From a virus, in the IMG/VR virus record IMGVR_UViG_3300023180_006024: a DNA stretch of 64,000 nucleotides; one strand, written 5' to 3'. The notes under the pieces were generated by a model. That model was not told where the DNA came from. It worked only from the letters and a program-made list of their open reading frames with translations, and did not search any database. Shown here piece by piece: positions 17,301 to 47,281 of the stretch (position 1 is its first letter; every line of letters starts with the position of its first letter). The translations under genes were made by a program, and so were the position numbers.

Positions 17301-20300
17301 GTCTCAGTATTAGCAACCCCACTTGCACCAAGTCTACTTGGAGATATTGTTCCAGAAATAATATTTTCTGCGTCAATGTTTGTAACAGCAAGAGTGTTCC
17401 AGTTTGCAATCAATCTACTTGAGGTGTTAACAATAGCATTTACTTGAACATTATTTCTAATAACTCTTGCACTACCTACACCATTAGTGCCAATATCTCT
17501 AGCGTTTGTAACTAGTCCATTGATACTGCTTAGTGCGTCTGAACGTAGAGCATGAATAGTAAATGAGTTAAGTGTGACACTTCCTACAAAGAATCTTGCA
17601 CCACTTGCAATCTCTGTGCCATTCACAGTTGGCAATGCGTTGCTAGTTGAACCATCTTCCAGTGATACAAGTCTTATAGCATCACCTGTTGTAAATCCAT
17701 GACCTACTACGACAACACTGTTATCAGTTAAGTTTACAGTGTATCTAGTAAAGTTGTGGTTGTTGTTAGCAGGTGTACTTAAGAAAGTTATCTGAGTATT
17801 TAAACTAAAGTCGTCATATACCTCAAAGGTGTCATCATCAACAACTTTAATATAATAAACATTACCGTTTAACAATCCGCCGATTGCAACATTTCCTAAT
17901 GTATCATATGTTACTGGATCGCCATTTGAAAATCCGTGAGCTGTGACACTTACTCTACTATCTGTATAGTTTACTGCACCGCCGCCGCCTGTTGTACCAG
18001 CTAGGAAGTTATGACTAATAGTGTCATCAAAGTTAATATCATTAGAATTTTGCACTGCTGTATTATCTTCAACAAAGTCAATACTCGATGCACTAGCAAC
18101 AAATAGTTCGCCTCCTAAGATGTCTACATACGCTCTATCTTCAATAGCAGATATTTCAATCTGGAATCCACTTCCTGTGCCGCCAATGTCACTAGCATTT
18201 GCACCTAACAAATCACCTGCCACATATCCTGTACCACCTCTTGTTAAGTCAACATCGGTAACAGCACCAGCCTGCACTGTGATGTTGGCTTTTGCACCTG
18301 TACCAGATCCAGTAACGCTTGTCATACTTACATTTTCGTATATTACCGATCCAGTTGTAGGAGTGTACAAGCTACCAGTTGTAATGTTAGCGTTATCTAC
18401 ACTTGCTGCAATACCTTCACGTAACTCTGTAACAGCACCTTGGGCGTTACCATCAGCACTTGTTACAATAGTATTTGCAGTACCAGTTACTGATTTTGAA
18501 GCTTCGTCGTCGCCTGTGTTTGCAATAGTAAATGTTGTTGTAGTAGGAACACTTAAAACCAAACCGTTTTGGTTATAGGTAGAATCGCCATCAACTGCAA
18601 CTTTTACGTTGTTGTCCACATTAATATTATGTGCTCCGCTAGTTGTTATAGTCGCAATATTTCCACTTCTACTTACATCTGTAATAGTTGCAATAGTAAA
18701 TGTATAAGTATCGTCGCTATCAAGTATTAAATACTGGCTACTGTTACTGCTACGTAAGAAGTAGTTATCAATAATTTCACTACTTACACCTTTTGAAGTA
18801 ATATTTACTCCGCTGTCTACGCCATTTACATAGATATTTCCAGCACTTACTTCCCAAGGATCGCCAGTGCTATCATCTGTTTTATCCCATGCTTCTCCGA
18901 TTGTAGCAACAAGAATATTAGTACTGAGAGAAAAATCACCTTTAGCATAAGCAGTTGCACCAGTTACTCCTGGTTGTGTAATAGTATCGCCGTCGCTTGC
19001 TGTAATAGTTCCAGATAAGTTAAGTTCTACCTGTTCGTATTCTTCAGTACCAATGTCACCAGCTTTCAAGTCAACTGCCGGAATATCTTCAATTTGTTCT
19101 AATCTAGATCGATATCCTTTGGTATTTGTGTTTGTAAACTGTCTAGTAGCAGGAATCAAGTCTGCGTTAAGCTGACCGTTAACATTGAGCTGTACAATAG
19201 CACCCGGAACAGCAGCAGAACTAACTGTCTTGTCAATAAAACCACCTAGTCTGTTTGACAAGAAGCTTCTAACAGCAAGCTGAGTACTCAAACGATTGTT
19301 GCTTGCGCCGCCTATTTCGTCATCACCTAAGTTAACATCAGTTGATATTTCTTCAATAGCAACATCACTAACACTAAGTTTCAAAGCGTCAAGTTCATCA
19401 ACCTGCACTTTGTTTCTAAAGGTAATGTTACCAGTTCTGTTGAACGCTGTAATAAAGTCACCAACTTTAAAGTCACCAAGTTCGTTTGTACCCGATGAGT
19501 AGCAACGTCCTGGCAGTTCTTCAAACTGTTCGTATTCTTCTCTTGTATTACCGCCGTTTTGTGGTAGAGCGTTGTAGTCTGTACCCGAACCTGCATATTC
19601 CCAAGTGTGTGCAGAACTGTTAACAATACTAGGTCTGTGGAACCAAAGTTGCTTCTCTGGAAGGTTGATAGTGTTTGTAACACTACTACTTCCGTCTGTA
19701 GCAGTGATGCTAAATGTTGCTGTACTCAAACCACGTTTAGTGGAAACTTCGTTTACACCAATATTTGTGTTAGGTGTGCCACTATGGTCTTCTGTAATAG
19801 TGCTAGTTGCATCAAACTGAATACGTAATGTGCTTGAGCCGACTGTAACTTCTTCAATACTTACAACAAGTAAGCGATCTGCAGGAATCCAACTTGCTAC
19901 AATAGCACTGTTATTGTTAGCACCTGTTGAACCTGTGATTGCTCTTCCTGGCACAAAGTTATAACTTTCTGCACCAGATTCTAGTTCAAGAGTTTGGTAT
20001 GTTGTATGACTTGACAATACTTCTTCAACAAAAAACTCAATAATATTACTTTTGAATATATGGTTTCCTGTGTTACTAAAGTTACTAAAGATTGTTACTT
20101 CAAACTCGCCACCGTCGTCATATGCAAGTGTAAATTCATCTTCGTTAATAATATTCACATAGTAAGTTTGTTCATCATCTAAACCACCAATAATAGTATT
20201 GCCATTGGCACTATAAACAACTTTTTGTAGATTTGTAAATCCGTGTCCTACTATTGTAAATATACCTGTAGCAACATCTAAAGCTGTTGCTGCATCAAAT

Positions 20301-34490: not shown

Positions 34491-34712
34491 AATAGTGATA
34501 GGTAGGACTAAGGATTACCTACAAGTGCCGTGACATATCCTGTCTACATAACTAGCACAACCTCACAATAGAATGGTTAGTTCTACTTTCTCTGCAACGC
34601 CTTGTCTCCAAAGTCTTACAGCGCCACCACAGCGTGTGAGTCAAGTTAATGCCTATGTGAAGCATCGTTTCCTTGCACTATCTAACTCGGACCGTCGTCT
34701 TTGTTATGTACT
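34460..34712 (-). ncRNA. Candidate ~250-nt structured non-coding RNA
   Basis: No tracked ORF. Bounded by a TTGACC-N17-TATATT promoter and a terminator, with several internal stems. Confidence 0.5.
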
Positions 34713-45423: not shown

Positions 45424-46125
45424 TTACTTGCTAATTTTGTAACCTGCTGCCTTGAGTGTATCTATTGCTTGCTTTTCTGCAGGAGAAGGTGTTGCTCTAT
45501 TCGATTTAAAACTTGCCGGAGGTTCTTCTTGTGCAAATCTACTTTTATCAAATCCAGCTGCGCCGCCGTAACCTTTAGCAACAACCTGTTTAATAATATT
45601 ACGCACTTCTCCTTTGGTTAGTGTATCACCTGCTTCTGCTTCGTACATACCAGCCGCTACTCGTTGACTTTTAAACATTGGAGCAGGTCCGCCGATTTGA
45701 CTTGCAGGAACTACACCACTTGCATTTTTTGCTGCTGTGGCAGCTTTACTAATAGCTGAACCTGCTTTTTGTGCACCAACTTTAGCCATACCACCAAGTT
45801 TTGCTGCTGCTTGACCTGCTGCTCTTGCTTTATCTTGACGTGCTTGACTTTTTGCTGACTTTTTCATTGTTTTAGTTACAAAGTTTTTCATGATAGGTGC
45901 AGCAGCTTGACCAAGTCCTTTTTGATCAAAATATTTTTGTAATGCGTCAACAGTTGGTTTCTGTTTTGATGTTTTTAGATATGTAAGAAGTTCAACTTCC
46001 ATCTGACGTGCTTCATCACTAGTAGCACCCTTAGCAGCCTTTTTGGCTTGCTTCATCATTTTTGCTTTTTTAGTAAATGGAATTGCTTCATTTACATCTT
46101 CTGTAATAATCTGAAAAACTTGCAT
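45424..46125 (-). CDS. Lys/Ala-rich basic protein, putative internal head protein
   Basis: N-terminus MQVFQIITEDVNE carries I/V-x-E protease-type sites; perfect TATAAATA upstream. Confidence 0.55.
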   Translation of the reverse strand: MQVFQIITEDVNEAIPFTKKAKMMKQAKKAAKGATSDEARQMEVELLTYLKTSKQKPTVDALQKYFDQKGLGQAAAPIMKNFVTKTMKKSAKSQARQDKARAAGQAAAKLGGMAKVGAQKAGSAISKAATAAKNASGVVPASQIGGPAPMFKSQRVAAGMYEAEAGDTLTKGEVRNIIKQVVAKGYGGAAGFDKSRFAQEEPPASFKSNRATPSPAEKQAIDTLKAAGYKISK

Positions 46126-46164
46126 TGTGAGATATCCTTAAATGTAACTTATTATTATTTATAC

Positions 46165-46602
46165 ATTTAAGATGAACTTACGTTCATCTGTGTTATCGCT
46201 ATCGCTCAACACGAACTATGTTTTCTTGATTATAATACTAATAATGCATATGCGTAAGCATATGCTTTTAATATTATTCAGATTGTGAAGTCATAATTCG
46301 CCCGTTGCCGGGCGAAGGTAGCTTTGAAACATTATTCGAGTCGCTTCAGCCATCTTGTTAAAAGAGATTCAACTTGCGTTGTCGGAGGCGGTTGACCTGT
46401 ATCCCCCTACTCTAGCTTCGTCATATCAACGGAAGGCAGTTATTCCCTAACAAGCGAAAACACTTACCATGTGGTTGCTTTTTCTCAGAGCCACTATCCT
46501 TTAAAGCCTATCGTATACTTCTTCACGTGAGCATTCCACACCACCGGCAACGAGCATAACCTCGGCTGGATCTTGGAGTTTAATCAGAGCTCAATATATA
46601 GC
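46165..46602 (-). ncRNA. Candidate large structured RNA (or replication origin) downstream of the GIY-YIG gene
   Basis: ~440-nt stretch with no tracked ORF, richer in GC than its flanks, with three GNRA-capped hairpins on the minus strand and long-range stems. Confidence 0.55.
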
Positions 46603-47028
46603 CTATTTGTGTTCTAGTAGTGCCTGGCGTAGTTTTTGCGAACCACCAACTCTTACATTGATGATGCCGTTGTAGTATTCGTCTGTTTCTAATACACGCC
46701 TGTCAAACTGTTCTCGTGCTTCGATATAACTCATTTCTGCTCTGCTTTTACAGAAGTAAAGTATTTCACGAGTAAAGTTTTTTTCGCCTAGTGTTTTTAC
46801 ATCTTCGTTCAGTCTATCTGAACTTCCCCAGTATTCACGCCAATCGCTTTCTTTGTAACCGCGGCGTTTGTTCTTTTTGCCTTTTAGTGGTGGCTTGGTT
46901 GTTTTAAACTTTGCTAGTTTTTTGCCTACGTATTTTTGTTTTGTTTTTTTATTTGTAATCAGATATACAAAGCCTTCGTATTCATCTGGAATTGTTTCAA
47001 CTTTTTTGCCTTTATATGTCCAACTCAT
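46603..47028 (-). CDS. GIY-YIG endonuclease (Seg/EndoII-like, stand-alone catalytic domain)
   Basis: GFVYLITN...KYVGKK...YWGSS...FTREIL...E...YYN motifs. Confidence 0.85.
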   Translation of the reverse strand: MSWTYKGKKVETIPDEYEGFVYLITNKKTKQKYVGKKLAKFKTTKPPLKGKKNKRRGYKESDWREYWGSSDRLNEDVKTLGEKNFTREILYFCKSRAEMSYIEAREQFDRRVLETDEYYNGIINVRVGGSQKLRQALLEHK

Positions 47029-47035
47029 ATATTAG

Positions 47036-47281
47036 TTATTTTTTGCCTTGTGCTTCTCTTGCCTTTTTTGGATTATTGTTTTTTCTGCCGTCTTGTACAT
47101 GTCTAATGTGTTCTTCCATTATCTCATCACGTCTTACTTTGCAGAGATCACGTAGTTCGCCTAGCTTTTTGCGCACCTTTCTACGTTTTAACTCTGCAGG
47201 ACGCTGTTGGAATATTTCATTCAATGCGAAATAGTCCAATACTGCCTTGATTATCTTGTCATGTGTGTCTTCTTCGCTCAT
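47036..47281 (-). CDS. Hypothetical protein
   Basis: 81-aa ORF overlapping the gp46 stop. Confidence 0.65.
   Translation of the reverse strand: MSEEDTHDKIIKAVLDYFALNEIFQQRPAELKRRKVRKKLGELRDLCKVRRDEIMEEHIRHVQDGRKNNNPKKAREAQGKK

What the first reader, a model, noticed from the sequence alone, without database searches (positions are those of the whole stretch)
46165..46602. ~440-nt highly structured non-coding element directly after a stand-alone GIY-YIG nuclease
Seen: it starts at the nuclease stop codon, has no tracked ORF and is richer in GC than its flanks. On the nuclease-sense (minus) strand, three hairpins are capped by GNRA loops: CAAC-GCAA-GTTG (46370-46381), TTCGCCCG-GCAA-CGGGCGAA (46297-46316) and AGATGAAC-GTAA-GTTCATCT (46170-46189). 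There is also a long-range CTTGTTAGGG/TTTTAACAAG pairing, a GTGGCT...AGCAACCAC stem and a palindromic GCATATGC-N4-GCATATGC hairpin (46246-46265). I could not see RNase P, tmRNA or group I/II intron core motifs. Inference: a large ncRNA co-transcribed with, and possibly partnering, a small nuclease that lacks an obvious DNA-recognition domain. Alternatively, a hairpin-rich origin or nicking site processed by the GIY-YIG and gp46/47.
Basis: partly seen in the sequence, partly recalled or inferred. Interest (0 to 1): 0.8.

Follow-up and report, generated by a model that had tools for sequence, protein, structure and literature searches.

The report
Twin-box structured RNA in phage
The gene-free stretch behind a small nuclease gene of this uncultured giant marine phage encodes a real, knotted RNA of about 430 bases from a widespread but mostly uncatalogued family that carries one short word twice; its job is unknown, and the nuclease looks like a fixed neighbour rather than a partner.

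Summary
Observation confirmed. The minus-strand fold is supported by compensatory changes in about 30 type-A relatives and, for its 3' half, in 65 diverse relatives.

The element (46170-46602, minus strand) is a non-coding RNA gene with no Rfam 15 match. Its 3' half matches a covariance model built only from a different sequence type. That half carries the family's hallmark: two single-stranded 7-nt boxes, identical within each RNA (111 of 114) but differing between RNAs (18 words).

In divergent relatives the 5' third is the orphan Rfam motif Polynucleobacter-1 (RF01718). The window RNA is a variant without that domain.

In this phage clade the RNA always follows the GIY-YIG gene (170 of 170 loci). 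It usually precedes a hypervariable late gene that looks like an internal head protein. However, Polynucleobacter-1 plus twin-box RNAs occur without the nuclease in bacterial genome-bin contigs, and a 68%-identical nuclease in phage Melnitz has no such RNA.

The RNA-guided-nuclease and origin readings are therefore not supported. Function is unknown, and I found no partner for the boxes. This scan has already reported the same family on other DNA many times.

The parts
46170..46602 (-). Whole non-coding RNA locus (type-A twin-box RNA). The 5' end is taken at the base after the nuclease stop and the 3' end at the last conserved hairpin. True transcript ends are not measured.
   Evidence: Conserved at 81-94% nt identity in about 27 IMG/VR loci. 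Alignment A1. Structure counts. The same order of modules is seen in types B and L079 and in the bacterial copies.
46528..46593 (-). 5' domain closed by a 5-bp helix (46589-46593 with 46528-46532). It encloses the small hairpin 46551-46564.
   Evidence: Three of the five closing pairs change on both sides.
46471..46494 (-). GUGG/CCAC stem with an A-rich loop.
   Evidence: Two pairs show compensatory changes, with three pair types.
46354..46463 (-). Pseudoknot. The loop of hairpin 46440-46463 (bases 46448-46454) pairs with 46354-46360. Local hairpin 46384-46407 lies in between.
   Evidence: Helix 6 is 100% paired, with two pairs changing to G-U wobbles. In hairpin 46384-46407 one pair switches between G-U and A-U.
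46370..46381 (-). Variable-length expansion hairpin. Here it is minimal, 4 bp with a GCAA loop.
   Evidence: In relatives the same position holds hairpins of 12 to about 100 nt with unrelated sequence. L002 keeps the stem through two compensatory changes and a GUAA loop.
46230..46352 (-). Twin-box domain: ACUC + box 1, hairpin 1, UGAC, AAUCU + box 2, hairpin 2.
   Evidence: Model R1, built from type-B sequences only, gives 30.2 bits and E 2e-4. It is the only hit in the 64-kb window.
46331..46337 (-). Box 1 (GAAUAAU).
46297..46316 (-). Hairpin 1, 8 bp with a GCAA loop, between the boxes.
   Evidence: In 65 relatives, 8 of 9 pairs change on both sides and 95.5% of cells pair.
46273..46279 (-). 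Box 2 (GAAUAAU), identical to box 1.
46246..46265 (-). Hairpin 2, terminator-like, followed by an A/U-rich tract.
   Evidence: All five model pairs change on both sides across the family.
46190..46212 (-). Conserved 3' module: a 5-bp stem around a GA-rich internal loop and a 2-bp mini-hairpin.
   Evidence: Present in all sequence types and in the bacterial copies. The mini-stem switches C-G to U-A. A 1-nt indel rules out a peptide.
46170..46189 (-). Hairpin 3, 8 bp with a GUAA loop; the last conserved element.
   Evidence: Three pairs show compensatory changes within type A.
46603..47028 (-). Stand-alone GIY-YIG nuclease gene (141 aa); a neighbour, not shown to belong to the RNA's function.
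   Evidence: Pfam PF19835, 1.1e-32. phrog_447.
46126..46169 (-). T4-type late promoter TATAAATA (46156-46163) and a hairpin that covers the ribosome-binding site of the next gene. Both lie downstream of the RNA.
   Evidence: Read. Late-promoter-like words lie upstream of 62 of 98 such genes.
45424..46125 (-). Hypervariable late gene (233 aa, K/A-rich) with an N-terminus like the T4 internal-protein capsid-targeting sequence; a neighbour.
   Evidence: No Pfam, PHROG or phage match. The N-terminal motif is conserved across unrelated proteins of 92-563 aa.

Best explanation
Window 46170-46602 (minus strand) is a gene for a stable, pseudoknotted non-coding RNA of about 430 nt. It is a 'type A' variant of a family found in giant T4-like aquatic phages and in a few bacterial contigs. 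Other members of that family begin with the Rfam motif Polynucleobacter-1.

Shown:
- The fold is supported by covariation.
- The 3' half is homologous across sequence types.
- Two single-stranded boxes, each followed by a hairpin, stay identical to each other while the word itself changes between lineages.
- Polynucleobacter-1 plus twin-box RNAs exist without the nuclease.

Inferred:
- In this phage the RNA is made by read-through from the gp47-gp46-GIY-YIG operon. It ends at hairpin 2 or hairpin 3, before the late promoter of the next gene.
- It acts in trans as a rigid scaffold that shows the same 7-9-nt word twice to one bivalent reader. The RNA would then be a sponge or adaptor, not a guide for the neighbouring nuclease.
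For: Reality of the RNA:
- Type-A structure: 95.7% paired, 10 compensatory pairs against 4.5 in shuffles, 0 of 500.
- Hairpins 1 and 2 in 65 relatives: 95% paired, 13 of 14 pairs change on both sides, 0 of 500; slid controls 25-52%.
- A variable-length hairpin sits at a fixed site.
- No ORF is present, and indels are not multiples of three.

Family membership:
- R1, built from type B only, hits 46230-46352 at E 2e-4.
- RF01718 lies 5' of the twin-box domain in 10 of 17 divergent loci and in L079.

Twin boxes:
- Identical in 111 of 114 unique RNAs, with 18 words.
- Identical in 80 of 83 loci found through the 3' module alone.
- For every variable position of box 1, the column with the highest mutual information is the same position of box 2. 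This extends to position 9.
- The word changes at least 22 times on the nuclease tree.
- The A-to-G change in both boxes is the only change unique to L071 and L074 in a 713-column alignment. It sits on two different backgrounds.

Independence from neighbours:
- L268 lies between a histidine kinase and dehydrogenase and pilin genes. L266 lies beside integrase and Fic genes. Neither has a GIY-YIG gene.
- The Melnitz nuclease is 68% identical and has no such RNA.
- The late promoter lies 3' of the RNA.
Against: - No transcript data exist, so the ends, the promoter and stability are all inferred.
- No partner for the boxes was found in the RNA, in the spacer, in 4-10 kb of flanks, or as an enriched word in the window.
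- Predicted accessibility is clear for box 1 only.
- A protein reader that tolerated 18 words would not by itself force the two boxes to match.
- In phages the RNA was never seen without the nuclease gene (170 of 170), so a phage-specific tie cannot be excluded.
Confidence: 0.55

Rival explanations
1. Nuclease-RNA system. The RNA guides, activates or restrains the adjacent domain-only GIY-YIG nuclease, with the twin boxes as guide or decoy words.
For: Adjacency holds in 170 of 170 phage loci, down to 50% nuclease identity and 45-60% gp46 identity. The nuclease lacks a DNA-binding domain. No terminator separates the gene from the RNA.
Against: - Polynucleobacter-1 plus twin-box RNAs occur without the nuclease (L268, L266).
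- The nuclease family is common without the RNA: phrog_447, Melnitz and cyanophages.
- No nuclease residue tracks a box change.
- There is no free variable end.
- The whole gp47-gp46-GIY block is syntenic, so linkage says little.
Confidence: 0.07
2. Cis-acting control region. The RNA and its hairpins control read-through from the early or middle operon into the downstream late gene, or control that gene's timing. The downstream gene is hypervariable and resembles an internal head protein.
For: The RNA sits directly upstream of such a gene in at least 98 of 131 unique loci. There are two terminator-like hairpins, and a further hairpin covers the ribosome-binding site.
Against: The gene has its own late promoter 3' of the RNA. 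The bacterial copies, and some phage copies, have no such gene downstream. About 400 nt with pseudoknots is far more than an attenuator needs.
Confidence: 0.12
3. 'Match each other' signals. The two boxes are donor and acceptor sites for one reaction on the RNA or on its copy. This could be polymerase template switching, or excision and ligation of the 47-67-nt segment between them. Only their identity would then matter, not the word.
For: Covariation runs in parallel (position i with position i) and no third partner was found. The word switches fast between near-identical RNAs.
Against: - No reverse transcriptase or ligase gene lies in the locus.
- Concatenated units give no open frame unless their length is a multiple of three, and lengths show no such preference.
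- No box-to-box deletion junction occurs in IMG/VR.
- JGI metagenome contigs gave only two unrelated chance matches.
Confidence: 0.08
4. DNA-level element: a replication origin, a nicking or homing site, or a recombination hot spot for swapping the variable gene.
For: Many contigs break just after the nuclease gene. The next gene is a swappable cassette. The nuclease tree disagrees with its flanks: L001 has 99% nuclease but 80% gp46 identity, while L020 has 88% and 86%.
Against: Compensatory changes with strand-specific G-U pairs fit RNA, not duplex DNA. Cumulative GC skew has no turn at the site. The same element lies in a bacterial chromosome context.
Confidence: 0.03

Closest known systems
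Polynucleobacter-1 RNA motif (Rfam RF01718; Weinberg et al. 2010, PMC2864571)
   Same: The closest relatives of the window RNA carry this 141-nt motif as their 5' third, upstream of a homologous twin-box domain. This holds for L079, for 10 of 17 divergent phage loci and for 4 genome-bin contigs. Both are orphan RNAs of aquatic origin with unknown function.
   Different: The window RNA has no RF01718 match even at E 10; a different 5' domain takes its place. The Rfam model covers only about a third of the full RNA. The twin boxes, the pseudoknotted core and the 3' module are uncatalogued.
GOLLD, ROOL and OLE large 'ornate' RNAs (cryo-EM study PMC12286853)
   Same: These are also large, highly structured orphan RNAs, several of them carried by phages or prophages. 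They too have conserved unpaired stretches, GNRA loops and variable peripheral hairpins.
   Different: There is no sequence or model match. This RNA is smaller, at about 430 nt. No self-complementary loops that would suggest homo-oligomers were seen. The twin-box feature has no counterpart in them.
Guide RNAs of mobile-element nucleases (HEARO/omega RNA with IscB or TnpB)
   Same: A structured RNA of a few hundred nt is encoded next to a small nuclease gene.
   Different: The nuclease here is GIY-YIG, not RuvC-type. There is no variable guide at either end. The RNA and the nuclease each occur without the other.
Paired identical recognition words: lambda nutL/nutR boxes; coronavirus leader and body TRS (from general knowledge, not tested here)
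   Same: Two short words in one genome or RNA stay identical to each other while differing between related viruses, because one reader or one copying step uses both.
   Different: Here the two words lie only 47-67 nt apart in one folded RNA. No N-like protein, RNA-dependent polymerase or template-switch product is known for this phage.

Membership tests
Polynucleobacter-1 RNA (RF01718) | Covariance-model score at or above the gathering score of 37 bits. | tested here: not met
   No RF01718 match on 45900-46900 at E up to 10, nor in the whole window at gathering threshold. Relatives score 46-118 bits.
Twin-box RNA family (uncatalogued; defined within this scan) | Two identical 7-nt single-stranded words, the first after ACUC and the second after AUCU, 47-67 nt apart. 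| tested here: met
   GAAUAAU at 46331-46337 and at 46273-46279. Family-wide identity is 111 of 114.
Twin-box RNA family (uncatalogued; defined within this scan) | A covarying hairpin between the boxes and a second one after box 2; a match to a model built from other members. | tested here: met
   R1, built from type B only, gives 30.2 bits and E 2e-4 at 46230-46352. Covariation is shown.
Twin-box RNA family (uncatalogued; defined within this scan) | A conserved 3' module (stem with a GA-rich loop and a mini-hairpin) followed by a further hairpin. | tested here: met
   46190-46212 and 46170-46189. The pattern is shared by types A, B and L079 and by L266 and L268.
Group I or group II intron carrying a homing endonuclease | An intron core recognisable by model, and interruption of a host gene. 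| tested here: not met
   No intron model match at E up to 10. The flanking ORFs are complete genes with their own starts and stops, and the order is conserved in all loci.
RNA-guided nuclease system (omega RNA or HEARO type) | Obligate pairing of RNA and nuclease, and a variable guide segment at one end of the RNA. | tested here: not met
   Polynucleobacter-1 plus twin-box RNAs without the nuclease in L266 and L268. A nuclease without the RNA in Melnitz. The only hypervariable segment is an internal hairpin.
GOLLD / ROOL / OLE / raiA and all other Rfam 15 families | A covariance-model match. | tested here: not met
T4-type internal head protein (for the downstream gene only) | A conserved N-terminal capsid-targeting sequence ending in Glu before the prohead-protease cut, on otherwise unrelated proteins (PMC3012670). 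| tested here: inconclusive
   The motif M-[KRQN]-[ILV]-x-[DE]-[ILV], followed by E-[AG], heads unrelated proteins of 92-563 aa. Cleavage and packaging cannot be tested here.

The most novel reading that the evidence does not exclude
The twin boxes are a pair of programmable 7-9-nt words that must match each other. Either they are twin guides that direct a protein to one matching sequence (in phages possibly the ever-adjacent GIY-YIG nuclease). Or they are donor and acceptor signals for a template-switch or excision-ligation step on the RNA. Either way this would be a new kind of RNA-programmed reaction in giant phages and some bacteria.
Probability: 0.07. Interest if true: 0.9.

Novelty: new variant of a known kind. 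Interest (0 to 1): 0.6.

Why it matters
Only one third of this RNA family has ever been catalogued, as the orphan motif Polynucleobacter-1 described in 2010, and its function is unknown. The full RNA is large and multiply knotted. It is strongly conserved across a big clade of uncultured giant T4-like aquatic phages, and it also occurs on bacterial contigs.

Its two boxes co-evolve by identity rather than by complementarity. That pattern is rare in RNA. It points to a specific but still unidentified molecular event: one bivalent reader, or a step in which one box is matched to the other.

Settling this would explain a conserved feature of abundant ocean viruses. It could also reveal a new RNA mechanism. 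This window adds a variant that has replaced the catalogued domain, which shows that the twin-box half is the constant core of the family.

Tried and rejected
1. Known RNA families. Rfam at gathering threshold and at E up to 10 gave nothing on the window element or on type B. ARAGORN found no tRNA or tmRNA there.
2. DNA similarity to cultured phages: none.
3. Coding or decayed coding sequence. There are no ORFs, indels break the frame, and the 3' module's apparent short peptide is broken by a 1-nt indel.
4. An anti-box inside the RNA. No consistent 7-of-7 complement exists, even allowing G-U pairs.
5. An anti-box in the A/U-rich spacer. An RNA's own box pairs no better than foreign boxes: 4.3-5.4 against 4.6-5.9 contiguous pairs for every word seen in two or more RNAs.
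6. An anti-box in the 4-10 kb flanks. There were 61 own hits against 56.5 control hits, with no fixed position.
7. Enrichment of the word in the window: 10 occurrences against 14.5 expected.
8. The two boxes pairing with each other. Covariation is parallel, not antiparallel.
9. Box word against nuclease sequence: no residue tracks the change. From the tables alone, the word also does not follow the small upstream ORF, the start codon context or the type of the downstream gene.
10. A DRT2-like endless ORF from concatenated inter-box units: rejected.
11. Natural deletion of the inter-box segment. There were 0 hits in IMG/VR and 2 unrelated chance hits in JGI metagenomes.
12. A first, stricter Polynucleobacter-1 pattern in the genome collection found nothing. 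A looser one worked.
13. Supplementary alignments of the 10,006 viral candidate RNAs (PMC10690425) are not held. I could not check whether fragments of this RNA are listed there; that set tops out at 151 nt.

Full report
**What is there.** On the minus strand, the 433 bases between the stop codon of a 141-aa GIY-YIG gene (46603-47028) and a T4-type late promoter (46156-46163) contain no gene. No ORF with a start reaches 40 aa, and sense-strand stop-to-stop frames are at most 29 aa. GC rises to 0.48 against 0.28-0.40 around it. Hairpin 46246-46265 is also picked up as terminator-like. The thermodynamic signal of the single sequence is modest and the same on both strands (z about -3). The case therefore rests on comparison with relatives.

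**Setting.** The neighbours are gp47-like and gp46-like recombination nuclease subunits, an 81-aa ORF, the GIY-YIG gene, the gap, a 233-aa K/A-rich ORF, and then baseplate genes on the other strand. The gp46 homologue is at most 48.5% identical to any cultured phage; the best matches are jumbo phages such as PA5oct, Phosso and Atu_ph07. This is therefore an uncultured giant T4-like phage. No whole genome is held for it.

**Relatives.** IMG/VR holds at least 597 relatives of the nuclease gene.
- Almost all of the 80 loci fetched show the same order: gp46, small ORF, GIY-YIG.
- The nuclease gene is usually followed by an ORF-free gap of about 450-650 nt, longer where small ORFs are inserted. Next comes a gene that differs from locus to locus, at 137-563 aa.
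- That variable gene nearly always starts with the same short motif, which resembles the capsid-targeting sequence of T4 internal proteins. Those proteins are themselves a hypervariable set of injected anti-defence proteins (PMC3012670).
- Many contigs break just behind the nuclease gene, as expected next to a hypervariable cassette.

**Three sequence types of one RNA.** The gaps fall into three groups. Type A holds the window and about 30 unique relatives at 81-94% identity. Type B is a second group. L079 stands alone, and its 5' part is the Rfam motif Polynucleobacter-1 (71.8 bits).

All three share the same 3' layout:
1. ACUC plus a 7-nt box.
2. A hairpin with a GNRA-like loop.
3. UGAC.
4. 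AAUCU plus the same box again.
5. A second hairpin.
6. An A/U-rich spacer.
7. A small conserved module.
8. A third hairpin.

A covariance model built only from type-B twin-box domains (A4, R1) finds the window's domain at 46230-46352 with 30.2 bits and E 2e-4. It is the only hit in 64 kb. The types are therefore homologous.

**Is it RNA structure?**
- On the model-based alignment of 65 diverse members, 95% of cells in the two hairpins pair. Thirteen of 14 pairs change on both sides, no shuffle of 500 reaches the observed values, and slid registers give 25-52%. That alignment is fitted to the model, which favours it somewhat. The MAFFT alignments show the same compensations by eye.
It has 10 compensatory pairs against 4.5 expected (0 of 500).
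- A hairpin of variable length and unrelated sequence occupies one fixed position. It is 12 nt in the window and up to about 100 nt elsewhere.
- Conserved G-U pairs make the fold specific to the nuclease-sense strand.

**The twin boxes.** Earlier notes of this scan pointed me to 'one word carried twice', and I tested this independently.
- In the window the word is GAAUAAU, at 46331-46337 and 46273-46279.
- Across 114 unique RNAs the two boxes are identical in 111, and the three exceptions differ at the last position. Eighteen different words occur.
- In the set found through the 3' module alone, the boxes are identical in 80 of 83.
- In an unbiased scan of the 155-column alignment, the best partner column of every variable position of box 1 is the same position of box 2. 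The relation extends to position 9.
- The word changes at least 22 times on the nuclease tree.
- ACAUGAA became ACGUGAA in both boxes on two different sequence backgrounds. No other change in the whole gap is unique to those sequences.
- Because the covariation runs in parallel, the boxes do not pair with each other.
- I found no co-varying complement in the RNA, the spacer or the held flanks, and no enrichment of the word in the window.
- Positions 4-6 read U-R-A in 17 of 18 words. I have no explanation for this.

**Relation to the nuclease.**
- For a link: 170 of 170 twin-box loci with enough upstream DNA have a GIY-YIG homologue 270-1365 nt upstream of box 2. This holds down to 50% nuclease identity and 45-60% gp46 identity.
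- Against a functional link: the whole block is syntenic.
- The same small nuclease family (phrog_447) is common in phages that lack the RNA.
- Phage Melnitz carries a 68%-identical copy in another context, with a 148-nt gap and no model hit, while its gp46 is only 26% identical.
- No nuclease residue tracks a box change.

The decisive evidence comes from the genome collection. A pattern taken from the Polynucleobacter-1 domain found four true RF01718 copies on genome-bin contigs.
- L269 is a mis-binned phage with gp46 and the nuclease.
- L268 lies between a hybrid histidine kinase and dehydrogenase, ComP and PilY1 genes.
- L266 lies beside integrase, Fic and DUF6876 genes.
- L268 and L266 both carry twin boxes and the 3' module, and neither has a GIY-YIG gene.
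- L270 is only 2 kb long and was not examined further.

The family as a whole is therefore a unit of its own. For type A itself, no copy without the nuclease was seen.

**Relation to Polynucleobacter-1.** RF01718 lies 5' of the twin-box domain in 10 of 17 divergent phage loci. The catalogued 141-nt motif (PMC2864571) is thus the first third of a longer RNA. Types A and B have replaced that domain; type B has a simple hairpin there. The window RNA fails the RF01718 test but shares the constant core.

**Mechanism.**
- Shown: the fold, the homology, the identity constraint, and the independence of related family members from the nuclease.
- Inferred: the RNA is transcribed by read-through from the nuclease operon. 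It ends before the late promoter, so it is not the leader of the late mRNA.
- My best reading (about 0.4 for the mechanism itself) is a trans-acting scaffold that presents one word twice to a single bivalent reader.
- The rivals are a cis control region, a 'match each other' reaction, a nuclease partnership, and a DNA-level site. All rank lower, for the reasons given under each.
- Tests of the 'match each other' idea were negative. Concatenated units give no endless ORF. No box-to-box deletion junctions occur in IMG/VR or JGI contigs.

**Novelty.**
- The family is absent from Rfam 15 apart from its optional 5' domain.
- A 2023 catalogue of 10,006 viral candidate RNAs, all at most 151 nt, may hold fragments of it. 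Its alignments are not held, so I could not check.
- This scan has already reported the same family on other DNA many times: 211 notes in at least 150 genomes. My results agree with those reports.
- This window adds a type-A variant without the catalogued domain.
- It also adds a chromosomal bacterial copy.
- It adds the parallel mutual-information test.
- It adds the negative junction and concatemer tests.

Noticed in passing
window 45424-46125 (-) and the loci: The gene after the RNA is a hypervariable cassette of unrelated proteins, 92-563 aa long. All share one N-terminal motif like the T4 internal-protein capsid-targeting sequence. Many metagenome contigs break at this point.
   Followed up: partly
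window 46126-46171 (-): A late promoter TATAAATA (46156-46163) lies here. An inverted repeat of about 9-10 bp has a 3' arm that covers the ribosome-binding site of the 233-aa gene. This geometry silences translation on read-through transcripts in T4.
   Followed up: partly
L001, L020-L023, L114 versus the window: The nuclease gene tree disagrees with its flanks. L001 has 99% nuclease but 80% gp46 and 49% small-ORF identity. L020 has 88% nuclease but 86% gp46 and 83% small-ORF identity. Together with the 68% copy in the unrelated phage Melnitz, this suggests that the nuclease gene, perhaps with the RNA, moves by homing-like exchange.
   Followed up: partly
window 47036-47281 (-): The 81-aa basic ORF between gp46 and the nuclease gene diverges far faster than its neighbours: 30-50% aa identity where gp46 is 75-87%. 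It has no family match.
   Followed up: no
window 34492-34701 (-): A manA RNA (RF01745, 55.4 bits), a second structured RNA gene in the same window.
   Followed up: no
window 19619-19712 (-): ARAGORN calls a 94-nt tRNA-Cys with anticodon ACA. Both the length and the anticodon are unusual.
   Followed up: no
L266:3500-3700: The bacterial or mobile-element copy carries the conserved 3' module plus hairpin twice, about 130 nt apart.
   Followed up: no
L179: One IMG/VR contig has the 3' module behind a different, GC-richer upstream sequence with no twin boxes. The module may also serve other RNAs.
   Followed up: no
L193: In one divergent phage, the ORF after the RNA starts like a second GIY-YIG endonuclease instead of a capsid-targeted protein.
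   Followed up: no
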